DNA of 44,729 nucleotides from Clostridia bacterium (GCA_045592225.1 JAZNUH010000041.1:1-44729), one strand, 5' to 3'. Shown: positions 1,767 to 40,246, counted from the stretch's first letter. Notes: a model not told the origin generated them from the sequence alone. Translations and numbers: made by a program.

Positions 1767-2177
1767 ATGTATTTAGGAGAATATACAGCAGATATAATTG
1801 ACGGAAAGGTAGAGTTTCCCTGGATGGTGGAGGGTGACAAAAAACTTGTGTGGCAGATATCCGAAAGCACAGTTGAGGGAGTTAAATCTGTAAACTACAG
1901 CATAATTGACACCGAACAGGCGGGGGAATATGCGTCGGGCGGAGATGAAAGCAGCTTTAAAATTTTACACCAGGGCGAGTTTACCGTTGATGACGAGGAT
2001 ATGTGGGAAGTACCCGAAGAAATGAAGGATTACTTTGAATCGGGAGAGATTATATTTTTCGGTATGGGCTTTATGGTGGAAATGATGTCACCTGAAGAAA
2101 TGGAAAAATATAATGATATGATGGATGATATTGAAGATATTATGGATATAATCGACGGTAAGAAAAAGGAGGAATAG
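1767..2177 (+). CDS. hypothetical, very acidic Met/Asp/Glu-rich protein (136 aa)
   Basis: ORF with strong RBS (AGGAGGAG, 7 nt spacing). First of three tightly packed genes. I recognise no family. Confidence 0.5.
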   Translation: MYLGEYTADIIDGKVEFPWMVEGDKKLVWQISESTVEGVKSVNYSIIDTEQAGEYASGGDESSFKILHQGEFTVDDEDMWEVPEEMKDYFESGEIIFFGMGFMVEMMSPEEMEKYNDMMDDIEDIMDIIDGKKKEE

Positions 2178-2407: not shown

Positions 2408-3637
2408 ATGCTACACAAGATAAATGCAAATATATCCCACGCGATGTATTTTTCTGCCGCACCGGTAGGCGGGGAAAAAGAGCTTGACAGGAAACTTAAA
2501 GCAGAATTTAAAAATACGGTGATGTACAGTTCCAAGGGAGAAGCCGGAGAGCAGTACACAAGGGATATGCAGATTGTAGAAGATTTTTTAAGGGGCGGCG
2601 CACAGACAGGTAAGGTAATAAGATATTTTTTAAAGGATTTTTATGCCGAGCCGGAGCGCAACGGTCTTGACGGCTGGTGTGTTATGCTTACATTTTTTGC
2701 AAAAACCAATATACTTGCGCTTTCCTTTCACTATTCGCTGAAGGATACAGATGCGGATACACTCATAGCACGCAGACAGTCGGGAACAGGGAAGGAATAT
2801 ATTTTCCCGGACGGCACATATTCCTGTAAGGAAATTGCAAAAAGAGTTATTTTGGGTCTTGGACTTGAGCCCAGCATAGACGGAAGCTATCTGTGTGAAA
2901 TAACCAAATTTGGTGACTATACAGATATTGATAACATAAGAAATGAACACGCAAATCTTCTATACGGTCTTTTATCGGGTGATGAAGGATACGAGTTTGT
3001 ACCCGGTTATCTTGTAGAGGAGAGATTGGGAAATTTCTGGGGCAGCCGCAGCTTTACACGCCTTTATGCGTGTCATCAGTCGTGCCTGTTTTTCAATCTG
3101 CTGAAATCACCTGACTACGACAAGTATTTAAAAAGACAGACTCAATACGGTACCGACATTTACGGCGGGCCGAATCCCTATTTCTTTATAGGAGAGTCGC
3201 CGCTTACCGTCAATCATGGGGTTTTGTTTTCGGTGGAGTTTGTAATGATGCTTAAGGCGCTTGTAAAAGAGGTGCTTGCCTTCCACACTCACTATAATGA
3301 AAAAAAGCATGCTTTTTCATATACCAAAAGAATAAATGAAACAAGAGAATTAAGACGAAAAATTATAACCGTGCTTGAAGAAGTGGAAAGCACACCCATT
3401 TCAGAGATAGGCGAGATGAGTGGAATGCTTCTTAAGAGCCAGAATATTGCACCGGTTGTTGACCAGGTAAAATACCTGCTTGAGCTTCTGGAGGGGGATT
3501 TATCCCTGGCATATTCCGAATACAACAATGCCCTTATAACCGTTCTTACCATCGGAGGTCTTATTCTGAGTGCAATTCCTTATATTCCGGCTGTGCTTGA
3601 ATTTTTCAGAAATTTATTTTTTAATTTGTTGCACTGA
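2408..3637 (+). CDS. hypothetical protein with a single C-terminal TM helix (409 aa)
   Basis: ATG at 2408 is preceded by AAAGGAGAGG, so I prefer it over the track start at 2360, which overlaps the upstream ORF. The C-terminus has a long helical segment, then a hydrophobic stretch LITVLTIGGLILSAIPYIPAVL. Confidence 0.55.
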   Translation: MLHKINANISHAMYFSAAPVGGEKELDRKLKAEFKNTVMYSSKGEAGEQYTRDMQIVEDFLRGGAQTGKVIRYFLKDFYAEPERNGLDGWCVMLTFFAKTNILALSFHYSLKDTDADTLIARRQSGTGKEYIFPDGTYSCKEIAKRVILGLGLEPSIDGSYLCEITKFGDYTDIDNIRNEHANLLYGLLSGDEGYEFVPGYLVEERLGNFWGSRSFTRLYACHQSCLFFNLLKSPDYDKYLKRQTQYGTDIYGGPNPYFFIGESPLTVNHGVLFSVEFVMMLKALVKEVLAFHTHYNEKKHAFSYTKRINETRELRRKIITVLEEVESTPISEIGEMSGMLLKSQNIAPVVDQVKYLLELLEGDLSLAYSEYNNALITVLTIGGLILSAIPYIPAVLEFFRNLFFNLLH

Positions 3638-6843: not shown

Positions 6844-6849
6844 AGGTTA

Positions 6850-7128
6850 AAAGCAATGAACGGAACCAAGTAGGCTATGAGCGGAGAAGAGAGAAACGGC
6901 GGTTGGTGCGAGCCGGGGTCTTAACATAGTTCGAATACAGTCCGGGAGCTGCAGGGGAGAAATAGCAGTAACTCCTGACGGGGGCGCCCGTAGAAACGCG
7001 TGAGTAGTACGGTAGTATGGTTTTTTCGTTTACTCAATGAGGCAAACGACCGTGAGGTGTTTGTGAACTGAGGTGGTAACACGGATTTATTTTCCGTCCT
7101 CTAATAGTTTATTAGAGGACGGTTTTTT
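6850..7128 (+). promoter_or_regulatory. T-box riboswitch leader, probable Tyr (UAC) specifier
   Basis: Stem I shows K-turn halves AUGAA/GGAGC, an AGUA S-turn (6869-6872), an AGAGA bay and a GGUGCGA distal loop (6905-6911). The specifier loop reads CGAAUACAG, with UAC at 6936-6938. The T-box sequence AACUGAGGUGGUAACACGG lies at 7066-7084. The terminator CCGTCCTCTAAT/ATTAGAGGACGG plus T6 lies at 7094-7128. Confidence 0.75.
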
Positions 7129-10439: not shown

Positions 10440-11303
10440 ATGAAAAAAGGGATTTTATATGCCGCTATAACGGCGGCGTTATTTGTTACGCTTGAGCCGG
10501 TATGCAAGCTTATTGCAGACAGAGTTAACCCTTATACAATAACCTTCTGGCGATTCTTTTTAGGGGCGTTTATGCTTGTTCCGCCGGCACTTATAAAAAT
10601 GAAGAAAGAAAAAATACGCATTACGGCAAAGGAACTGGGGCTTATGACCGCCCTTGGTATATTGTTTGTATGTGTAAGTATGATACTCATACAGATTGCA
10701 ATAAAGGAGGGGGAGGCACCCTCGCTTATTGCTATAACCTTTTCGTCAAACTCAATTTTTACAATTATGTTTGCGGTATTGCTCATCAAGGATGAAAGGC
10801 TTACAAAAAATAAAATTATTGCCCTTATAGTCGGAGTAATCGGTGTGCTTGCCTGTGCCGATTTCGGAGAAAAAACCAACCTGAGACCTATTATTTTTGC
10901 TGTACTTTCGGCAATTTCGTTCAGTCTGTACACGGTGCTGAGCAGAAAATATATGGGCAGAGTGGGCGGAATTATCCAGTCGGCAGGAGCTTTTCTTTCC
11001 GGCAGTATAATTCTCCTGATTATTTTGCTGATAAGCGGAGAAAGTGTGGCTTTGCCGCTTGTGGGAAATGACCTTATGATTCTTTTGTTTATTGCGCTTG
11101 TAACAGGTGTAGGTTATGCCTGCTACTTTATGGCGATGGACAGGGGCGGTGCTATGATGGCATCTCTTGCTTTTTTTATAAAGCCGGTGCTTACACCCTT
11201 TGTAACATTGGTTATAAACGGAATTGCTCCGGATATTAAGGTGTTCTTCGCAGTAGCGTGTATAGTGGCGGCATCATATTTTGCAGTGTATAGGAAGGCA
11301 TAA
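10440..11303 (+). CDS. EamA/DMT-family transporter
   Basis: 287 aa, about 10 TM helices, arranged as two EamA-like halves. Confidence 0.8.
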   Translation: MKKGILYAAITAALFVTLEPVCKLIADRVNPYTITFWRFFLGAFMLVPPALIKMKKEKIRITAKELGLMTALGILFVCVSMILIQIAIKEGEAPSLIAITFSSNSIFTIMFAVLLIKDERLTKNKIIALIVGVIGVLACADFGEKTNLRPIIFAVLSAISFSLYTVLSRKYMGRVGGIIQSAGAFLSGSIILLIILLISGESVALPLVGNDLMILLFIALVTGVGYACYFMAMDRGGAMMASLAFFIKPVLTPFVTLVINGIAPDIKVFFAVACIVAASYFAVYRKA

Positions 11304-11332
11304 AAAAAGACATTCATATGAATGTCTTTTTC
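11303..11332. terminator. bidirectional terminator between convergent genes
   Basis: AAAAAAAGACATTCATATGAATGTCTTTTTC: a perfect palindromic stem flanked by an A tract and a T tract. Confidence 0.75.
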
Positions 11333-11748
11333 TATGCCTTTTTAATCATTTTTGCTTTGCAAACCTTACAGGTGATTTCAATTTTGCCGACTCCTTTTGG
11401 TACACGAAGCAATGCATGACATTTATTACATTTAAAATAGCGGTGAGTTTTACGTTCCTTCCACATTTTTTTGCGGAAAGAAAAGGTATTAATAAGCTTT
11501 GACTTGACTTTTCGGTATGTGTTAAGCTCGGATGTGCGCGAATAAATGTTTTTGGAAAACATACGCACATAGCAAAGCACCAGCAGAATAAGTGCAAGTA
11601 TATACAAGGGGTAAAATCCAAATACTGCCGAAACAAAAAAGAGTATCAGTGACAGAATGGACATAGCTCTTGAAAGCTCGTCATTCCCGTACCTGCCCTG
11701 CATAAAAACAGCAAGACGGTATTTTAAACTGTAAAAGAATTTTTGCAT
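11332..11748 (-). CDS. membrane protein with C-terminal zinc ribbon (138 aa)
   Basis: Two hydrophobic helices, then CNKC...x17...CKVC. The ATG abuts the TAA stop of the upstream alarmone-synthetase gene (TAAATG). Confidence 0.6.
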   Translation of the reverse strand: MQKFFYSLKYRLAVFMQGRYGNDELSRAMSILSLILFFVSAVFGFYPLYILALILLVLCYVRMFSKNIYSRTSELNTYRKVKSKLINTFSFRKKMWKERKTHRYFKCNKCHALLRVPKGVGKIEITCKVCKAKMIKKA

Positions 11749-25390: not shown

Positions 25391-27664
25391 ATGAAAAAGA
25401 CGGCATCAATATTGCTTATAATTCTTTTGCTTACCCAGTCGGTTTCGGCGGCATTTACCGATGTGACGGCTGAAAGCGGTGAATATACGGCGATTGCAAG
25501 CGTAAGTCAGCTTGGAATTATGACAGGCTATGAAGACAACACGTTCCGCAGCGAAGAAAAAGTAACCCGTGCGCAGTTTGCTAAAATTGTAACTGTCGTA
25601 AGCGGTGGTGAGGAAAACGCCGTATTGCGTATGGATGCGGGGCAGTTTGCCGACGTAACCTATAATCACTGGGCAAGCGGATACATAAGTTATGCAGTTG
25701 CAAACGGAATTTTAATGGGTTACGGTGACGGAAGCTTCCGACCCGAGCAGAATATAACCTATGCAGAGGCATTGACGGTTATCCTCCGTGCTATGGGTTA
25801 CAGCGCAGAGGACGTAGGCTATTACTGGCCTGCGGGATACATAGAAAAGGCGTATGCCCTGGGACTTATAAGCGATTATTCGTTTGACCCGTATGCACCC
25901 ATAAGCAGAGGGGAAATAGCCATTTTAATTGACAAGGCTTTATATATGGAAGGCAAGGGCGGAGTAAAGCTTATAACCGCATTTGATATGAAGGAATACG
26001 AGGACGCGGTTATAATAGCAACCAAGAAGACAGATTCATCACTTGCGGGAGATCAGGTAAGCACCTCGGCAGGAGTGTTCAAAAAGGGAAGCCTGACAGA
26101 GGTGGATGAGTATATAGGCATAAAAGCCGATATTGTTGTTGACAAGAACAATAATCTTGTTCAGATTCTGCCTGCCGAACAAACTGTTGAAAGGGCAGTT
26201 ATTGAAGGCGCTGTCGGAAAGGATATAACGGTAAGTGTAAACGGCAGAACAAAAACCATTCAGCTTGATGATAATATGGTGGTATATTACAAGGGAAGCA
26301 AATCCTCTGCCGCACAGCAGAAGGCTAACCTGACCGAAGGAAACGAGCTTTATATGTACAGTACAGGCGGAGAGGTGGATTATATTTTCCTTTATGCCTA
26401 TGACATTATGGGACCCTATACCGTCGCAAGCGGTGGCGCAGAGCTGATAAACTATTTTGGTATTGAGGACAGCAGCAAGGTTTCGGTTATCCGTGATGGG
26501 CTTTCATCAAGTTTTGCGCAGGCGGAAAGGTATGATGTGGCATACTATGCTGCAGGCAGTAACACATTGTATTTATACTGTGACAAGGTAAGCGGTACTT
26601 ATGATGAAGCTTACCCCATGAAGGCAAATGTTACCGAGGTAACAGTATCGGGCAGGACATACGAGCTTGAAGGCAGCCTTGCAAAGAGCAAGCTGGGAGA
26701 GGGAGCCGGTGCCTTTAAAATCGGAGACAGGGTGACATTGCTTTTAGGTCGTGACGGACTTGTTGCTGATGCAGTTGTGCTCGGGGAGGATGACCCTTCA
26801 AATTACGGTGTAATAATAAGCACAAGAATGACAGTTTCGGATGATAATGATACAAAGGGACAAAGCGAATATTACACTACCATACTCAAGGGAGACGGTA
26901 TGGAGGTAGAGCAGAAGAGTGTAAAGGATTATTCTGACTACAAAGGCAGATTTGTAAGCATTGACTATGAAGACGGTAAAATGAAGTTTACAACGGTAAC
27001 CTACACACCTGTTTACGGTGCTCTTGACAAGGCTGCTCCTTCTCTTGGCGGAGTTCAGTTTGCACGAAACTACAAAATAATTGAGCTTGTAAAGCAGGAG
27101 GGTAACAGCACACCCGTGGTACAGTGTGTAGAGCTTTCTGATATAAAGCTTAAATCGCTTACCAAAAATCAGGTAATTCATGCCCAGAAATCAAACGATT
27201 TTGGCGACATAACGGTACTTTATATAAATAATGTAACAAACAGTAACTATCAGTACGGAATACTGACTCACGCCGCAATGTCAGGTATGGGAATGAGTAT
27301 TTCGGGCAGCTATACCGTTATGAAGGATGGTGTGGAAACCGACTACCGAACCTCGGGCGTTGCATACAGTGCAAGCGCAGGTCAGGCTGTGGGAATAGAA
27401 ACAAACGGCGGTGCGCTTACAGGAATTAAGGTTTTGTCTCCGGTTATATCATCATCAAAGGTTGAGGCGGTAAGCGTTGGAAGAATTAAGGTCGACGGTG
27501 AAATATATGAACTGGACGATAATGTGCAGATATTCAAAGAAAAAGACAGACTCAATACATTTACCCAGATATCAATAAATGACCTTGCGGGTATGAAAGA
27601 TGGGTATGTAACACTTTACTCGGATAAACCGGCAGGAATAATAAGGGTAATAAAGGTACAGTAA
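25391..27664 (+). CDS. secreted S-layer-homology (SLH) domain protein
   Basis: Signal peptide MKKTASILLIILLLTQSVSA, then three SLH-like repeats (FTDV..., FADV...GYGDGSFRP). The remainder is unassigned. The start is moved from 25370 to ATG 25391. Confidence 0.75.
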   Translation: MKKTASILLIILLLTQSVSAAFTDVTAESGEYTAIASVSQLGIMTGYEDNTFRSEEKVTRAQFAKIVTVVSGGEENAVLRMDAGQFADVTYNHWASGYISYAVANGILMGYGDGSFRPEQNITYAEALTVILRAMGYSAEDVGYYWPAGYIEKAYALGLISDYSFDPYAPISRGEIAILIDKALYMEGKGGVKLITAFDMKEYEDAVIIATKKTDSSLAGDQVSTSAGVFKKGSLTEVDEYIGIKADIVVDKNNNLVQILPAEQTVERAVIEGAVGKDITVSVNGRTKTIQLDDNMVVYYKGSKSSAAQQKANLTEGNELYMYSTGGEVDYIFLYAYDIMGPYTVASGGAELINYFGIEDSSKVSVIRDGLSSSFAQAERYDVAYYAAGSNTLYLYCDKVSGTYDEAYPMKANVTEVTVSGRTYELEGSLAKSKLGEGAGAFKIGDRVTLLLGRDGLVADAVVLGEDDPSNYGVIISTRMTVSDDNDTKGQSEYYTTILKGDGMEVEQKSVKDYSDYKGRFVSIDYEDGKMKFTTVTYTPVYGALDKAAPSLGGVQFARNYKIIELVKQEGNSTPVVQCVELSDIKLKSLTKNQVIHAQKSNDFGDITVLYINNVTNSNYQYGILTHAAMSGMGMSISGSYTVMKDGVETDYRTSGVAYSASAGQAVGIETNGGALTGIKVLSPVISSSKVEAVSVGRIKVDGEIYELDDNVQIFKEKDRLNTFTQISINDLAGMKDGYVTLYSDKPAGIIRVIKVQ

Positions 27665-27698
27665 AAAAAGCCGCAGAGAAATTTCTCTGCGGTTTTTT
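27664..27698. terminator. bidirectional terminator
   Basis: AAAAAAGCCGCAGAGAAATTTCTCTGCGGTTTTTT. It abuts the stop codon of the spo0A remnant. Confidence 0.8.
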
Positions 27699-28992: not shown

Positions 28993-29010
28993 TATAAAAA
29001 AGTAAGAGGG

Positions 29011-29288
29011 TAAGCAGTTGCGTTAGTATCTGAACCCGCCTAAACCAAGTAAAATAGCCGTTTTTCTTTGTTGTCGGTCTCAAAATACGCCGGTATTACT
29101 TCGACCTTCCGCCTTGAAAAAGCGACAATTTTATCTTGTTTTAGGTTCTATGAATTTTCGGTGCAGTGTTTTTGCGTCAATGCGAGGCAAAAACACAGCT
29201 AATGCTGACGCATTTGCGAGTATTTTAACGATGCAGTGGCGTAAAAACACGCACCCAAAACGGGTTCGGATACTAACGCAACTGCTTA
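29011..29288. repeat. 278-nt element E1 closed by a 28-bp inverted repeat (family shared with 39206-39484)
   Basis: TAAGCAGTTGCGTTAGTATCTGAACCCG pairs with CGGGTTCGGATACTAACGCAACTGCTTA, with one T/G position. The internal blocks CGCCTAAA, GTTTTAGGTTCT, AGGCAAAAACACAG and ATTTTAACGATG sit at the same offsets as in E2. Confidence 0.6.
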
Positions 29289-29323
29289 TGCAAAATGAAT
29301 TTTATTTTGCATACCCTCTTGTA

Positions 29324-30925
29324 TTAAATTCGCTCGAAATAGGGCAATACATCAATGGGGGCGGGGAGTGTAACGGTTTGCCCGCCTTTATAAAGTTCAC
29401 CATTAACATACTTCCACATACAGTTTTTCGGAAGCCTTATGCTACGAACATAAGAGCCTTTTGTTATAACCGGTGCAACAAGGTATTTTTCGCCAAGCAT
29501 AAAGCAATCGTTTGTATTTTCGTACCCCTCATCGGGAAACTCGTATGCCATATGCCGTATAATGGGTTGACCGTCGGCACGGGTGCGGTTTACAAGCTCT
29601 AAAATATAGGGGGAAAACTTTTTGTGCAGCTGTGCCATATTGCGGCAAATATCGGTTTGCTCACGGCTGAGATATTCCCAGGGCAGCATTGAAAACTGCA
29701 TCATTGGGAACAGGGTGGACAACTGACACATTCTTATAAACAGCTCGCTGTCAAATTCTGCTTTGCCGTTTTTATATGCGTGAACAAAGGTCCATTCTCC
29801 GCCGCCTATCATATCGGGGCAGATAAATGGGCTGCCGATAAGCCCCTGCATAAGGCAGTAGGGGATAATGGTGTTTATACCCTCATTCGTCCATGAATGG
29901 TTTCTGTCGCGCAGGCGCTGGATACCGCACTTGCCGCCGCCTTTATATGTATCTTTAAACTCGTTATGCAAATATTGCCTGCCAAATTCGTTCCATGCAA
30001 TATTGCGTTCATAGTGCGGGTGTATTTCGTTTATATGCCCGTTTATGCACATATAATCCGAGTAATGGTATATATGGCCGCCGTCAAATTTAAAGCCGTC
30101 TATACCGTATTCGGATATGAGGGTATCAAGCTGGGTTTTAAGAAAGTCCCTGTCGGCTTTTTGTGTAAAATCTAAAATGGCACACACGCCGTTCCACCAG
30201 CGTATAAGAGCAACCTCGCCGTTATCAAGGCGAAGATACAGCTTTTCGTCGTTTTGTTCCTGCATACCAAACTCTGCCGCCATGCGAAGGCTTTTAACAT
30301 ATTTTTCGCCCGAGCAGGTAACAAACGGGCAAATCCACACCAGAACGGTAAAGCCCATTTTATGCAGCTTATCTGTCATTGCTTTTGGGTCGGGGAATTT
30401 GACAGGGTCGAACTCCCAGGTGCCGTAGGGCTTGTGCCAGCCCTCATCTATGATTAAAACGCCGGGTTCAAAGCCGTTATCTTTTATGCTTTGGGCATAG
30501 GCGAGAACTGAATCCTGCGTTTGGTTGTAGGTACAGTGCATCCAAGTATTATACTGGGGGGTTATAAAACAATCATCGGGTAGGGGTTTACCGTCAAAGG
30601 GGAAATGCTGCTTTGAAGCCGCGAGATACGCATCCTTTAGGGTGTTGCCTGCGTGGTATAACTTAATGCTCATATCCCCCGTTACATAAATTTTACCGTT
30701 TTTAAACTCAAGCGCGAAAGCCTGCTCGCTCCATATATATCTACCCTTGCTTGAAAGCAGAAAGGGCATACCCTGGTTAAGACATTCTATGGAATTTGTA
30801 CCGGTAAGGTCCATACTTATATTGCTTTCGGCCGAGTAGGGCGCCTTGTCACCAAAGCAGATGCCACCACCCCACCAGTATTCATTTTCTAAAATATCAA
30901 ACACGTATTTCATAAGTTCCTCCAT
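29324..30925 (-). CDS. glycoside hydrolase, GH31-like (clan GH-D), specificity unknown
   Basis: LIIDEGW and GIDGFKFDGG resemble the GH31 catalytic-region motifs (compare YicI G.DCFKTDFGE). There is no signal peptide. It is divergent from an AraC gene. Confidence 0.65.
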   Translation of the reverse strand: MEELMKYVFDILENEYWWGGGICFGDKAPYSAESNISMDLTGTNSIECLNQGMPFLLSSKGRYIWSEQAFALEFKNGKIYVTGDMSIKLYHAGNTLKDAYLAASKQHFPFDGKPLPDDCFITPQYNTWMHCTYNQTQDSVLAYAQSIKDNGFEPGVLIIDEGWHKPYGTWEFDPVKFPDPKAMTDKLHKMGFTVLVWICPFVTCSGEKYVKSLRMAAEFGMQEQNDEKLYLRLDNGEVALIRWWNGVCAILDFTQKADRDFLKTQLDTLISEYGIDGFKFDGGHIYHYSDYMCINGHINEIHPHYERNIAWNEFGRQYLHNEFKDTYKGGGKCGIQRLRDRNHSWTNEGINTIIPYCLMQGLIGSPFICPDMIGGGEWTFVHAYKNGKAEFDSELFIRMCQLSTLFPMMQFSMLPWEYLSREQTDICRNMAQLHKKFSPYILELVNRTRADGQPIIRHMAYEFPDEGYENTNDCFMLGEKYLVAPVITKGSYVRSIRLPKNCMWKYVNGELYKGGQTVTLPAPIDVLPYFERI

Positions 30926-38121: not shown

Positions 38122-39147
38122 TTAATTTATTTTCTCTGCTTCAGCTAGCATATTCTCGATGAATATTCCATAACCCCTCGTAGGGTCATTGACAAATACA
38201 TGTGTAACAGCACCAACAAGCTTTCCATTTTGTAAAATCGGCGAACCGCTCATCCCCTGCACAATACCGCCTGTTTTTTGAAGCAGGCGCGGGTCGGTGA
38301 TTTTTATGACAAGTCCTTTTGAATTTTTAATGTTTGATTTTATAATTCTTTGTATTTGTGCTTTATATGCTGTTACCTTGCCGTTGAGTGCATCCGAATA
38401 AATTAGAGCCTCACCCTCGCGGACTTCACCGGATAGGGCGACAGGCACGGCTTTACCTTGTGGAACTACGTTAAGCTTGCCGTAAATTCCGCTTGAAAGG
38501 TTTTTGCTTATATTGCCCGTATTATCCCCTGAAAAAGCACCCTGAAGCTCGCCCGGATATCCTCGTTTGCCCGAAACAACAGAGGAAATGGTGCAGTCGG
38601 TCACATAGCCTTCCTTTACACGAAGCAGGGAACCGGTATCGCTGTCCGACACACCGTGACCCAGGGCGCCGAATGCACCTGTTTTGGGGTCGGTAAAGGT
38701 GACGGTACCGATACCGGCGGCACTCTCTTTTACCCACACACCTATTTTGTAAAGGCAGGCATCATTATAATATACGGGTGTTATTTTTTTGGTAAGCTTT
38801 TGACCGCTTCGCATTATTTCCAGAGAAACAGGCTGACCTTTTGTGCTCTGGATATGCTCTGCCAGTTCATCCCCGCTTGAAAGCGGTTTTCCGTCAACGG
38901 CAGTTATTATATCCCCCTCATAAATACCGTTGTTTTTGCCGGGTGAATAATATTTACCGAAGGAAGAAATTTCGGAAAAGCCTACCACTAAAAGTCCGTC
39001 CGTATATAGCTTTATGCCCACTGTGTTACCGCCCGGGATGACCTTGTCAGCAAGTGCAGCTACCGACAGGGACAAGGTAAAGGACAGTATGGTGACAAGT
39101 AATAAGGAGATAAGAGTTTTAGTAAATTTTGAAAATTTAAAATTCAA
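38122..39147 (-). CDS. spoIVB: SpoIVB signalling serine peptidase (S55) with PDZ domain
   Basis: GTVTFTDPKTGAFGALGHGV and GMSGSPILQNGKLVGAVTHVFVNDPTRGYGIFIE. The start is TTG, preceded by AGGAG. Confidence 0.85.
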   Translation of the reverse strand: MNFKFSKFTKTLISLLLVTILSFTLSLSVAALADKVIPGGNTVGIKLYTDGLLVVGFSEISSFGKYYSPGKNNGIYEGDIITAVDGKPLSSGDELAEHIQSTKGQPVSLEIMRSGQKLTKKITPVYYNDACLYKIGVWVKESAAGIGTVTFTDPKTGAFGALGHGVSDSDTGSLLRVKEGYVTDCTISSVVSGKRGYPGELQGAFSGDNTGNISKNLSSGIYGKLNVVPQGKAVPVALSGEVREGEALIYSDALNGKVTAYKAQIQRIIKSNIKNSKGLVIKITDPRLLQKTGGIVQGMSGSPILQNGKLVGAVTHVFVNDPTRGYGIFIENMLAEAEKIN

Positions 39148-39205: not shown

Positions 39206-39484
39206 ATAGCCTTAACAACCAATACTTAAGACGCCTAAAATGGCGAATTTTAGGAATATTTCGGCTTGTCGTCCTTGAAAGGCGATTAGCCTTCCTGCGT
39301 CCTCCGCACCAAACTCTCCTCAAAAATTTATCCGTTTTAGGTCCTGTGGAGTTTTAAAATAATAAATTTTGTTTCAATCAAGGCAAAAACGCAGGGAATA
39401 TGGTAATATTTCCGAGGATTTTAACGATGAGTGAGGCGAAATTTACATTTCAAAACCGCCTTTAGTGTTGGTGGTTAAGGCTAT
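39206..39484. repeat. 279-nt element E2, closed by a 21-bp inverted repeat (same family as E1)
   Basis: ATAGCCTTAACAACCAATACT pairs with AGTGTTGGTGGTTAAGGCTAT (one mismatch, one T/G position). The blocks CGCCTAAA, GTTTTAGGTCCT, AGGCAAAAACGCAG and ATTTTAACGATG lie at offsets 26, 128, 175 and 212, against 26, 127, 174 and 211 in E1. Confidence 0.55.
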
Positions 39485-40246
39485 GTACTCGGACAATGAT
39501 TTAAAAATAAAGCCTTTGTTTTGAATTTCTGTAATTATTTTATAAAGTGCGGCGGCGTTATCCTTTGACACGGCATGCAAAAGAATAACTGCACCATTGT
39601 GCACCTTTGATGTAACCTGCTCAAAGGCATAATCAGCGCCCTTTTGATTATCGGTTTCCCAGTCCTTATAGGCAAAGCTCCAGAATACATTTGTATAGCC
39701 GAGATTATTTGCAATTGAAAGTGTTCTTTCGCTGTACTCACCCATGGGCGGGCGGAAAAATTTCATATTAACACCGAATTTTTCAAAAACCTCTTTGTGC
39801 AGCCCCATAATTTCATTTTGGACATCGGCATCATTTTTCGATGGCATAGACGGGTGATTTACGCTGTGATTGCCTACTGTGTGACCCTCGTCAATCATAC
39901 GCTTTACAAGGTCGGGATTTTTGTTTAAATAATCCGAGGTGATAAAAAATGCTGCCGTTACGTTACACTTTTTAAGTGTGTCCAGAATATCGGCGGTGTA
40001 TCCGTTTTCGTAGCCCTCGTCAAAGGTGAGATATACATAGGGTTGATTTTCACTGCCCATATAGATACAGTTGTACTTTTCCATTGTCTGAATTTGTCCT
40101 GTGGTAAATTCGGGACGTGCGCCTGCGACAGGACGAAAACCCCAGCCTGTGGCTGTATCGCCTGAAGTGCTTGTGGGAATTACAGTATCACTTTTTGAAC
40201 AAGCGGTAAGAAAAATGCAGATGAGAATAATAAAAAATTTTCGCAT
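39443..40246 (-). CDS. pdaA: delta-lactam-biosynthetic de-N-acetylase (polysaccharide deacetylase, PdaA-like lipoprotein)
   Basis: LTFDEGYENGYT, EGHTVGNHSVNHP and FWSFAYKDW..QKG are collinear with B. subtilis PdaA. Lipobox FLTAC. The start is ATG 40246. Confidence 0.85.
   Translation of the reverse strand: MRKFFIILICIFLTACSKSDTVIPTSTSGDTATGWGFRPVAGARPEFTTGQIQTMEKYNCIYMGSENQPYVYLTFDEGYENGYTADILDTLKKCNVTAAFFITSDYLNKNPDLVKRMIDEGHTVGNHSVNHPSMPSKNDADVQNEIMGLHKEVFEKFGVNMKFFRPPMGEYSERTLSIANNLGYTNVFWSFAYKDWETDNQKGADYAFEQVTSKVHNGAVILLHAVSKDNAAALYKIITEIQNKGFIFKSLSEYIALTTNTKGGFEM

What the first reader, a model, noticed from the sequence alone, without database searches (positions are those of the whole stretch)
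29011..29288. Two collinear elements of about 279 nt have conserved internal blocks at fixed spacing but closing helices of different sequence: a candidate structured RNA or atypical MITE
E1 (29011-29288) and E2 (39206-39484) are both intergenic and almost the same length (278 and 279 nt). They share four blocks: CGCCTAAA, GTTTTAGGT(T/C)CT, AGGCAAAAAC(A/G)CAG and ATTTTAACGATG. The offsets from the 5' end are 26/127/174/211 in E1 and 26/128/175/212 in E2.

Each element is closed by a long terminal inverted repeat, 28 bp in E1 and 21 bp plus a partial extension in E2. The arm sequences are less than half identical between the two copies, yet each 5' arm still pairs with its own 3' arm.

Compensatory change with preserved length is what a conserved RNA helix looks like. 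It is not what transposase-recognised TIRs look like. The imperfect positions are T/G on the plus strand (a U-G wobble) and would be A/C on the minus strand, which favours a plus-strand transcript.

E1 also contains mutually exclusive pairings: GTGTTTTTGC (29166-29175) can pair with GCAAAAACAC (29188-29197) or with CGTAAAAACAC (29240-29250).

No flanking target-site duplication is obvious. E1 sits inside the putative imported island and E2 sits directly upstream of spoIVB.
Basis: partly seen in the sequence, partly recalled or inferred. Interest (0 to 1): 0.72.

Follow-up and report, generated by a model that had tools for sequence, protein, structure and literature searches.

The report
New TA-duplicating MITE family, folded
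The two 278-nt elements are copies of a previously undescribed family of small non-coding "jumping" DNA elements (MITEs) in gut and rumen Clostridia that insert at TA dinucleotides and keep a conserved three-armed fold; this is an interesting but basically familiar kind of selfish repeat, not a new class of RNA gene.

Summary
E1 (29011-29288) and E2 (39206-39484) share length, four blocks and a 28-nt closing inverted repeat, and both fold far better than shuffles.

They are two subfamilies of a multi-copy mobile element. A pattern scan of species-representative genomes returned over 100 copies, all in Clostridia (Oscillospiraceae/Acutalibacteraceae) MAGs, with at least 26 loci in one MAG, often at contig ends.

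- **Termini:** arm sequences are constant within a subfamily across many genomes, and 44 of 48 unique copies carry TA at both ends.
- **Empty sites:** an orthologous locus has a single TA where E2 sits. Removing E1 plus one TA restores a perfect 20-bp host hairpin. The same removal elsewhere restores a Rieske domain.

The fold is also real. Of 87 consensus pairs, 59 show compensatory double changes across about 12 subfamilies, inner helices included (92.6% paired against 34-47% when slid). Strand evidence is weak (G·U:A·C 54:31). Sense-oriented copies abut downstream ribosome-binding sites (26/86 against 4/57).

No Rfam family matches and no transposase was found. The left-arm apex module also occurs in a wider family of about 160-nt TA-flanked hairpin MITEs in gut metagenomes. 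Whether the RNA has a function is unproven.

The parts
29011..29288 (+). E1: complete element of subfamily A (TAAGCAGTTGCGTTAGTATC.GAAC arms), including both TA copies (29011-12 and 29287-88)
   Evidence: (nhmmer E = 9.7e-74, model positions 2-277); the same arms occur in 23 full copies from many MAGs
29012..29038 (+). E1 P1 5' arm (terminal inverted repeat / closing helix)
29040..29145 (+). E1 P2 domain (left arm). Its base GCC-YNAAA...TTTNRGG is conserved. A diverged apex module lies at 29069-29117.
29155..29260 (+). E1 P3/P4 domain (right arm), with the conserved core at 29181-29231 (AGGCAAAAAC-N-P4 hairpin-CGAGTATTTTAACGA)
29261..29287 (+). E1 P1 3' arm
28995..29326 (.). Host palindrome split by E1. 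AAGAGGGTA (left of E1) and TGCAAAAT...ATTTTGCATACCCTCTT (right of E1) lie between the convergent araC-like and GH31 genes. Removing E1 plus one TA gives a perfect 20-bp hairpin.
   Evidence: -27.6 kcal/mol, z = -8.5
39207..39483 (+). E2: complete element of subfamily B (TAGCCTTAACAACCAA arms), including both TA copies (39207-08 and 39482-83)
   Evidence: (E = 1.1e-60); empty site in L120
39235..39340 (+). E2 P2 domain, with the apex module at 39264-39312 (TTGTCGTCCTTGAAAGGCGATTAGCCTTCCTGCGTCCTCCGC). This module is shared with a separate family of about 160-nt hairpin MITEs.
39351..39456 (+). E2 P3/P4 domain, with the conserved core at 39377-39427
39443..40246 (-). PdaA-like polysaccharide deacetylase ORF. 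Its last 12 codons (ALTTNTKGGFEM) and stop are encoded by the E2 3' arm. The closest homologue (80% identity) ends ...SEYI, exactly at the insertion point.
38122..39147 (-). spoIVB (Peptidase_S55 plus PDZ), the gene downstream of E2 on the minus strand. E2 is antisense to it.

Best explanation
E1 and E2 are two subfamily members of a previously undescribed family of about 277-bp non-autonomous DNA transposons (MITEs). The family is found in uncultured gut and rumen Clostridia (Oscillospiraceae / Acutalibacteraceae).

**Shown**
- The elements are multi-copy and dispersed.
- They have 26-28-bp terminal inverted repeats that are constant within a subfamily.
- They are flanked by a duplicated TA, with a weakly palindromic target preference of about CT|TA|AG.
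- They have no consistent open reading frame.
- Precise removal of an element plus one TA restores host sequence.

**Inferred**
- They are moved in trans by a TA-specific DDE transposase of the IS630 / Tc1-mariner type, as proposed for RUP in pneumococcus. No such gene was found here.

**The fold**
- Unusually for a MITE, the whole element keeps a three-armed single-strand fold. This consists of closing helix P1, left arm P2 with a conserved apex module, and right arm P3/P4 with a conserved core.
- The fold is kept by compensatory substitutions across about 12 subfamilies, and length is held at 277 ± 2 nt.

**Most likely reason for the fold (inferred)**
- Copies land between a stop codon (TAA/TAG contains the TA target) and the next gene's Shine-Dalgarno sequence, so they are co-transcribed with host operons.
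- Lineages whose transcript collapses into a compact structure, with its two ends brought together, are the ones tolerated.
- The long P1 duplex would also be a natural RNase III substrate, as in Correia elements.
- A positive RNA function is possible but not shown.
For: **Multi-copy family**
- The genome scan gave 85 hits with exactly the 48-nt core span, all inside Clostridia-class MAG contigs by their record titles. All other spans were chance matches in coding DNA.
- nhmmer found 105 copies, 53 of them full length. One MAG (JAZNUS) has at least 26 loci, mostly at contig ends.

**Termini and target**
- Arms are identical within subfamilies across many MAGs.
- 44 of 48 unique copies have TA at both ends. 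Flank preferences are -2 C, -1 T/A, +1 A, +2 G.
- Neighbouring elements share a single TA (L003, L056, L055/L087).

**Empty sites**
- L120: gaatacaTAtagaatttacag. Window: gagtacaTA[E2]TAtagcttacag.
- The E1 site restores a perfect 20-bp hairpin.
- The L018 site restores a Rieske domain that spans the junction.

**No coding capacity**
- On average 3-5 stop codons in every frame.

**Fold**
- 59 of 87 pairs show double changes. 92.6% of cells are paired against 34-47% when slid. The covariation score is 0.593 against about 0.10, and 0 of 500 shuffles reach it. The inner helices P2, P3 and P4 covary too.
- Within subfamilies, substitutions per site are 0.03 at paired positions and 0.09-0.14 at unpaired positions.

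**Context**
- 26 of 86 unique 3' ends have an SD plus start codon 7-28 nt away on the same strand. Only 4 of 57 5' ends do so on the other strand (Fisher p = 7e-4).
- In co-directional gene pairs, sense:antisense is 14:5.

**Literature**
- Bacterial MITEs with TIRs, TA termini or duplication and highly base-paired transcripts are an established class (RUP/IS630-Spn1, Correia/RNase III): PMC2229807.
Against: - No cognate transposase or full-length IS with these arms was found. None was seen in the window, in about 700 kb of family loci, or in 587 kb of metagenome loci.
- In ordinary MITE families the TIRs are the best conserved part. Here the outer about 18 bp of the arms differ completely between subfamilies while inner modules persist. 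That conservation is partly built in by the exact-pattern retrieval: a subfamily found by adjacency (L087) has a diverged core.
- A TA duplication cannot be formally told apart from 'insertion 3' of TA by an element that itself ends in TA'.
- The 'tolerated because compact' rationale is inference. No transcript data exist.
- Strand asymmetry is weak.
- The orientation bias could partly reflect replication direction: the element's plus strand coincides with positive GC skew 55:28.
Confidence: 0.8

Rival explanations
1. The element is a functional structured RNA module, either a cis-regulator or insulator of the downstream gene or a trans-acting ncRNA, that spreads by transposition. On this view the RNA's function, not mere tolerance, maintains the three-way fold and the conserved unpaired motifs.
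For: - Covariation occurs in every helix, with nearly invariant junction and loop motifs (GGTC..AGAATTTT, AAGGCAAAAAC, CGAGTATTTTAACGATG, AAAAYC).
- Length is constant.
- Sense-oriented copies end 0-6 nt before an SD far more often than antisense ones (26/86 against 4/57).
- G·U exceeds A·C on the plus strand, 54:31, on shared pairs.
- Where local skew and gene direction disagree, the element follows the gene in 6 of 8 cases.
Against: - Copies also sit between convergent genes (E1), antisense to both neighbours (E2) and inside ORFs (L018, L058).
- No promoter or terminator is conserved.
- No Rfam family matches.
- Motif invariance is partly an ascertainment effect.
- The P2 interior can be deleted naturally (L091, L010).
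- Recent substitutions show no strand bias.
- The related 160-nt family shows no orientation bias next to gene starts (12 against 11).
Confidence: 0.2
2. The element is a single-strand DNA hairpin transposon, moved by an HUH/Y1 enzyme in the manner of REPIN/RAYT or IS200/IS605. It would insert 3' of a TA and itself end in TA, and the fold would be needed in ssDNA at the replication fork.
For: - Structure conservation is nearly strand-symmetric: 86% Watson-Crick pairs and equal single-sequence MFE on both strands.
- Orientation correlates with GC skew, 55:28.
- The empty-site data cannot distinguish a duplication from a terminal TA.
- No DDE partner was found.
Against: - Perfect inverted repeats run right up to the TA on both sides. 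That is typical of DDE elements and absent from IS200/IS605, whose ends carry separate subterminal hairpins (my own knowledge).
- The target flanks are palindromic (CT|TA|AG).
- Elements occur head-to-head as well as head-to-tail on one shared TA.
- No multi-copy ORF of any kind, so no Y1/RAYT-like gene, was seen in the loci. These loci are small samples of MAGs.
Confidence: 0.1
3. The element is a self-splicing or otherwise RNA-excised intervening sequence (group I/II-like or IStron-like), which would make insertions phenotypically silent.
For: - Two intragenic sense-strand insertions exist. Removing exactly 276 nt would restore the reading frame.
- The ends are brought together by P1.
Against: - No intron or ribozyme model matches, even at permissive thresholds.
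- The termini are TA-[A/G]...TA, not intron boundaries.
- Most copies are intergenic.
- In L018 the only in-frame stop was removed by a substitution in the arm. That suggests the insert is translated rather than spliced out.
Confidence: 0.02
4. The resemblance is chance, or these are ordinary terminator palindromes.
For: None beyond the AT-rich tracts.
Against: - More than 100 homologous copies have nhmmer E-values down to 1e-79.
- Fold z-scores are -11.4 and -6.6.
- Shuffle and slide controls fail to reach the observed values.
Confidence: 0.01

Closest known systems
RUP (repeat unit of pneumococcus), a MITE proposed to be mobilised by IS630-Spn1
   Same: A Firmicutes host, a non-coding element with TIRs, insertion at TA, many dispersed copies, and a transcript that is a stable stem-loop (PMC2229807).
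   Different: - RUP is 107 bp and a simple hairpin.
- Its TIRs match a known IS.
- Here the element is about 277 bp with three arms and many subfamilies with unrelated arm sequences.
- No matching IS has been found.
- No sequence similarity to RUP was tested.
Correia / NEMIS elements of Neisseria
   Same: - TA duplication and TIRs of about 24-26 bp.
- Frequent location next to genes and co-transcription.
- A long RNA duplex that RNase III cleaves.
- Size variants that differ by an internal block.
- No known cognate transposase (PMC2229807; the last point is my own knowledge).
   Different: - Correia elements are in Proteobacteria and are 105-155 bp.
- They carry an IHF site and promoter elements in the TIRs.
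- The present family has none of these.
- It shows deep covariation in a branched fold.
- RNase III cleavage was not tested here.
ERIC/IRU and YPAL (enterobacterial RU-1/RU-2), and REPINs
   Same: Imperfect palindromes that are kept as hairpins through compensatory changes, are transcribed within operons, and affect mRNA fate depending on orientation (PMC2229807 for ERIC/YPAL; REPINs from my own knowledge).
   Different: - Those elements are 70-170 bp single hairpins.
- REPINs have no TIR or TSD and depend on RAYT.
- The present family has TIRs plus flanking TA and a three-way fold.
Rickettsia palindromic elements (RPE)
   Same: Palindromic repeats that can persist inside protein-coding genes as in-frame inserts (PMC2229807). 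Here L018 carries a stop-free 92-codon insert inside a Rieske domain.
   Different: RPEs are commonly found inside genes (my own knowledge). Here only 2 of 46 unique copies are clearly intragenic, and most copies have stops in all frames.
Stowaway-type MITEs (Tc1/mariner-mobilised, eukaryotes)
   Same: TA target duplication, a size of 70-300 bp, the potential to form a stable fold, and many subfamilies with different TIRs (my own knowledge).
   Different: They are eukaryotic. No homology is implied or tested.
About 160-nt TA-flanked hairpin MITEs of gut, termite-gut and rumen metagenomes
   Same: - They share the apex module TTGTCGTCCT.G...GGCG..AGCC.......GTCCTCCGC with the P2 arm of E2-type elements.
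- They have TA at both ends, strict length (158-170 nt) and many unrelated arm sequences.
   Different: - They are a single long hairpin with no P3/P4 core.
- None of the 65 complete-context hits is a 277-nt element.
- They show no orientation bias next to gene starts.
- This family is apparently undescribed (no Rfam match).

Membership tests
Bacterial MITE (non-autonomous TIR transposon) | Many dispersed copies within and between genomes | tested here: met
Bacterial MITE (non-autonomous TIR transposon) | Terminal inverted repeats conserved among copies | tested here: met
   26-28-nt arms, identical within subfamily A (23 full copies) and subfamily B (8 copies)
Bacterial MITE (non-autonomous TIR transposon) | Target-site duplication shown by comparing filled and empty sites | tested here: met
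   TA at both ends in 44 of 48 copies. L120 is an empty site with one TA. The E1 site restores a 20-bp palindrome. The L018 site restores a Rieske domain.
Bacterial MITE (non-autonomous TIR transposon) | No transposase or other conserved ORF; small size | tested here: met
   277 ± 2 nt; on average 3-5 stops in each of the six frames
Bacterial MITE (non-autonomous TIR transposon) | A cognate autonomous IS with matching ends | tested here: inconclusive
   None was found in the window, in the family loci or in the metagenome loci. Only a few kb around each copy could be inspected.
IS630 / Tc1-mariner-mobilised MITE (RUP-like) | TA target and TA duplication | tested here: met
IS630 / Tc1-mariner-mobilised MITE (RUP-like) | TIRs similar to those of an IS630-family IS in the same host; a DDE transposase present | not testable with these tools
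   No ISfinder-type library and no whole host genomes were available. blastn of E1 against phage and plasmid collections found nothing.
Any curated RNA family (Rfam 15: riboswitches, ribozymes, introns, 6S, OLE, ROOL, HEARO and others) | A covariance-model match at or near the gathering score | tested here: not met
   The window at gathering threshold gives only a T-box, elsewhere. Permissive scans of E1 and of 10 other members give at best RAGATH-19 at 16.8 bits against a gathering score of 85.6, on the wrong strand.
REPIN/RAYT or IS200/IS605-type ssDNA elements | No TIR or TSD, separate subterminal hairpins, and an associated Y1 transposase | tested here: not met
   Inverted repeats extend to the termini and the flanks are TA. 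No multi-copy ORF was found in the loci. A Y1 gene elsewhere in the genomes was not testable.
Cis-regulatory leader / riboswitch | Consistent position in the 5' UTR of a defined gene set, sense orientation, and an expression platform | tested here: not met
   About 30% of 3' ends abut an SD. The downstream genes are unrelated. Copies also lie between convergent genes, antisense, or inside ORFs. The alternative pairing is not conserved.
Correia/NEMIS | RNase III processing of the transcript hairpin; an IHF site; TIR-borne promoter elements | not tested
   A 27-bp P1 duplex would suit RNase III, but this is inference. No promoter-like signal exceeds chance. There are no expression data.

The most novel reading that the evidence does not exclude
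The fold and its conserved unpaired motifs are themselves the selected unit. There are two versions of this reading.

(a) The element is a mobile cis-acting RNA module. Dropped in sense orientation between a stop codon and the next Shine-Dalgarno sequence, it would control or insulate translation or mRNA stability of the downstream gene.

(b) The transposition machinery recognises a folded single strand (apex module plus a closing helix of arbitrary sequence ending at TA) rather than a TIR sequence. That would explain why arm sequences are free to diverge while length, architecture and inner modules persist in both the 277-nt and the 160-nt families.
Probability: 0.2. Interest if true: 0.7.

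Novelty: new member of a known kind. Interest (0 to 1): 0.4.

Why it matters
- It defines a new, abundant repeat family in poorly studied gut and rumen Clostridia, together with a related 160-nt family in human-gut, termite-gut and rumen metagenomes.
- The repeats fragment MAG assemblies, alter gene ends (a 12-aa tail on a sporulation deacetylase here) and split terminators. They can also sit inside genes.
- For annotation, recognising them avoids false 'novel ncRNA' calls and mis-called ORFs.
- For biology, the family is an unusually clean case of a MITE whose entire branched secondary structure is maintained by compensatory evolution while its terminal repeats diverge.
- Its sense-biased placement right in front of ribosome-binding sites makes it a good system for two questions. 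One is whether selfish repeats are selected to be 'transcriptionally harmless'. The other is whether they are co-opted as regulators.

Tried and rejected
- **Rfam.** The window at gathering threshold, E1 at permissive threshold, 10 further family loci and 12 short-family loci gave nothing relevant.
- **blastn of E1** against phage and plasmid collections gave only short chance hits. The one viral-contig pattern hit was coding DNA.
- **Non-48-nt pattern hits**, including two in a Termitinemataceae MAG, are chance or coding matches, not family members.
- **Autonomous partner.** I searched k-mers of all arms outside known copies and clustered ORFs for multi-copy genes in family and metagenome loci. 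No transposase emerged.
- **Promoter and terminator scans** of both elements were at chance level.
- **Conserved ORF or in-frame design** is rejected, because stops occur in all frames.
- **Riboswitch-like alternative pairing** is rejected as subfamily-specific.
- **P2 as a recent nested insertion** is rejected. The TA at its base is not conserved across subfamilies.
- **Replication versus transcription as the cause of the orientation bias** stayed inconclusive.
- **Exact-protein lookup of SpoIVB** was not on record.
- **Literature.** One keyword search and one sequence-string search ran and turned up no description of this family. Three further full-text searches failed with time-outs. Prior description was therefore checked only through those two searches, one review and Rfam.

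Full report
**1. The observation**

E1 (29011-29288) and E2 (39206-39484) were read directly.

- They align over their whole length, with 74% mean column identity and the four quoted blocks in register.
- The two core blocks occur nowhere else in the window.
- Each element is closed by a 28-nt inverted repeat, 96% complementary in E1 and 86% in E2.
- Both fold into the same architecture: a long closing helix (P1) enclosing two arms. Energies are far below shuffled controls, at -124.5 kcal/mol (z = -11.4) for E1 and -96.6 kcal/mol (z = -6.6) for E2.

The description is correct and far beyond chance.

**2. More members**

Rfam has no matching family. I checked at gathering or permissive thresholds, for E1 and for ten other members. 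Phage and plasmid collections hold nothing similar.

I scanned one genome per species (GTDB representatives) for GGCAAAAAC-N(12-40)-ATTTTAACGATG.

- 85 hits have exactly the 48-nt span of E1 and E2. All of these are in Clostridia MAGs (Oscillospiraceae, Acutalibacteraceae, 'Clostridia bacterium'), several of them labelled sheep, goat or water-buffalo gut samples.
- Hits with other spans are chance matches in coding DNA.

A profile built from full copies finds 105 copies in these loci, 53 of them full length. One MAG contributes at least 26 loci, most of them at true contig ends. That is the signature of a repeat that breaks assemblies.

**3. It is mobile DNA that duplicates TA**

*Subfamilies.* The copies fall into about 12 subfamilies. 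Within a subfamily the arms are the same in many genomes, for example TAAGCAGTTGCGTTAGTATCCGAAC in 23 full copies and TAGCCTTAACAACCAACACT in 8. E1 and E2 simply belong to different subfamilies.

*Termini.* 44 of 48 unique copies have TA at both ends. The flanks show a weakly palindromic preference, about CT|TA|AG. Adjacent elements, whether head-to-tail or head-to-head, share a single TA (L003, L056, L055/L087).

*Empty sites.*
- The PdaA-like deacetylase next to E2 carries a 12-residue tail (ALTTNTKGGFEM) encoded by E2. Homologues align only to the part before it, and the closest one (80% identity) ends ...SEYI.
- That homologue's contig reads gaatacaTAtagaatttacag. The window reads gagtacaTA[E2]TAtagcttacag.
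- Removing E1 plus one TA joins AAGAGGGTA to TGCAAAAT...ATTTTGCATACCCTCTT. The result is a perfect 20-bp hairpin between the convergent araC-like and GH31 genes (-27.6 kcal/mol, z = -8.5).
- In L018 the same operation restores CPHMGC...CPCHGS, and a Pfam Rieske match spans the junction. In L058 it rejoins a Bro-N protein ORF.

*Coding capacity.* The elements have stops in all six frames.

**4. The fold is nevertheless conserved**

I aligned 20 diverse members (A2) and computed the RNAalifold consensus.

- It has 87 pairs, and 59 of them show compensatory double changes.
- 92.6% of cells are standard pairs, against 34-47% when partners are slid by 1-3 columns.
- The covariation score is 0.593 against about 0.10, and no shuffle of 500 reaches the observed values.
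- The inner helices covary as well as the terminal one. In P2, 10 of 14 pairs do so; in the apex hairpin 4 of 5; in P3 16 of 27; in P4 4 of 8.
- Within subfamilies, paired positions have changed three to four times less than unpaired ones.
- Length is held at 277 ± 2 nt.

Covariation of the arms alone could come from co-evolution with different transposases. Covariation of the internal helices needs selection on a folded single strand.

**5. Which strand, RNA or DNA?**

- The raw count of G·U 108 against A·C 32 is inflated by folding the plus strand. On the 70 pairs common to both strands' consensus folds it is 54 against 31.
- The consensus energy favours the plus strand (-97.1 against -83.9). 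Single-sequence energies are equal on both strands, with 26 of 53 copies more stable on plus.
- Recent within-subfamily changes show no bias: 16:12 and 9:10.

The plus strand is therefore only mildly favoured. 86% of the cells at paired positions are Watson-Crick, which serves either strand.

**6. Genomic context**

- Many copies sit in very short spacers inside operons. The upstream stop codon overlaps the left TA, and the first base of the element is always A or G, so TAA or TAG is recreated. The right end lies 0-6 nt before a Shine-Dalgarno sequence.
- 26 of 86 unique 3' ends have an SD plus start codon within 30 nt on the same strand, mostly at 9-16 nt. Only 4 of 57 5' ends do so on the opposite strand (p = 7e-4).
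- The plus strand also coincides with positive GC skew, 55:28. Replication bias and transcription bias cannot be cleanly separated. In the few discordant loci the element follows the gene in 6 of 8 cases.
- E1 (between convergent genes) and E2 (antisense to both neighbours) show that this placement is not obligatory.
- No promoter or terminator signal exceeds chance.
- The alternative pairing noted in E1 is strong only in subfamily A.

**7. Variants and relatives**

- Natural derivatives exist that lack the P2 interior (L091, about 190 nt; L010). Others retain only the two arms, at 42-70 nt (L042, L057, L060, L050, L052).
- A subfamily found by adjacency rather than by pattern (L087) has a diverged core. 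The near-invariance of the core among retrieved copies is therefore partly an ascertainment effect.
- I scanned metagenomes with the P2 apex module of E2-type elements (TTGTCGTCCT.G...GGCG..AGCC.......GTCCTCCGC).
- None of the 65 complete-context hits is a 277-nt element. Most are TA-flanked single hairpins, mostly 158-177 nt, with many unrelated arm sequences and this module at the apex. They come from human-gut and other metagenome assemblies and have no Rfam match.
- That family shows no orientation bias next to gene starts.

The 277-nt elements are thus a larger, branched relative within a wider superfamily.

**8. Mechanism**

*Shown.* Insertion at TA, with TA on both sides and precise restoration of the host sequence on removal.

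*Inferred.* Mobilisation in trans by a TA-specific DDE transposase of the IS630 / Tc1-mariner type, by analogy with RUP and IS630-Spn1 (PMC2229807). No partner was found in the DNA available.

*Inferred.* The fold persists because copies are co-transcribed with host genes. Only lineages whose transcript packs into a compact structure, with its ends juxtaposed, are tolerated between a stop codon and the next SD. The 27-bp P1 duplex would be an RNase III substrate, as in Correia elements.

*Rivals.* These are a dedicated RNA function, an ssDNA-hairpin transposition mechanism, and RNA-level excision. They are listed separately with their evidence.

**9. Verdict**

This is a real feature and a new family, but of a known kind: a bacterial MITE with TA duplication and a strongly folded transcript. 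Its unusual points are as follows.
- A branched fold maintained by compensation.
- Divergent arms around conserved inner modules.
- Strict length.
- Sense-biased placement in front of ribosome-binding sites.

These points leave roughly a one-in-five chance that the structure has a function of its own.

Noticed in passing
window 6847-7104 (+): A T-box leader, matching at 104.1 bits (gathering score 93). It is unrelated to the finding.
   Followed up: no
window 28995-29010 and 29289-29326: E1 is inserted in the 5' stem of a perfect 20-bp palindrome between the convergent araC-like and GH31 genes. The palindrome looks like a bidirectional terminator and is now split by the element.
   Followed up: yes
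window 39443-39481 (-): The PdaA-like sporulation deacetylase has acquired a 12-aa C-terminal tail and a new stop codon from the E2 arm. Whether this affects the protein is unknown.
   Followed up: partly
L018 3938-4215: A subfamily-A copy sits in frame inside the Rieske motif (CPH|MGC) of a DAO-Rieske oxidoreductase. It has no stop codon over 92 codons. The single in-frame TAG of sister copies is CAG here, at the cost of a mismatch in P1. This resembles Rickettsia RPE-type in-frame inserts.
   Followed up: partly
L042 258-299; L057 155-195; L060 3020-3065; L050 about 2085-2155 (-); L052 about 3375-3428 (-): TA-flanked 'solo-arm' derivatives of 42-70 nt keep only the two P1 arms. They are internal deletions, apparently between short direct repeats such as CGCC, or possibly excision products.
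   Followed up: partly
L121-L240 (metagenome loci): A separate, abundant family of TA-flanked long-hairpin MITEs, about 158-170 nt. Its members have many unrelated arm sequences (TATAGCAATCATCAG.., TATACTGAACTCCC.., TAGAGCAATT.., TAGTACTCC..) and a conserved apex module shared with E2's left arm. There is no Rfam match.
   Followed up: partly
L014, L100, L101, L068 (right flank of the subfamily-C copy): Four copies from different MAGs share about 35 nt of identical right flank (TTACGATTT.AGAAAAAAGTAAAAACCGCTGAAACC) before diverging. This subfamily may be embedded in a larger repeat unit, or may carry an extra 3' module.
   Followed up: no
L016 vs L023; L005 vs L013; L073 vs L105: Copies lie next to homologous genes in different species-level MAGs. 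This suggests some insertions are old and inherited rather than recent.
   Followed up: no
window 11295-11340 and 27665-27698: Two further strong palindromes: arms of 23 nt with no spacer, and an overlapping 21-nt palindrome just after the SLH-protein gene. They are probably terminators and are not related to the element family.
   Followed up: no
window 26114-26133 / 26382-26401: A 20-nt inverted repeat, 80% complementary and 248 nt apart, lies inside the SLH-domain ORF. The spacing resembles the elements, but there is no profile match, so it is probably chance.
   Followed up: no
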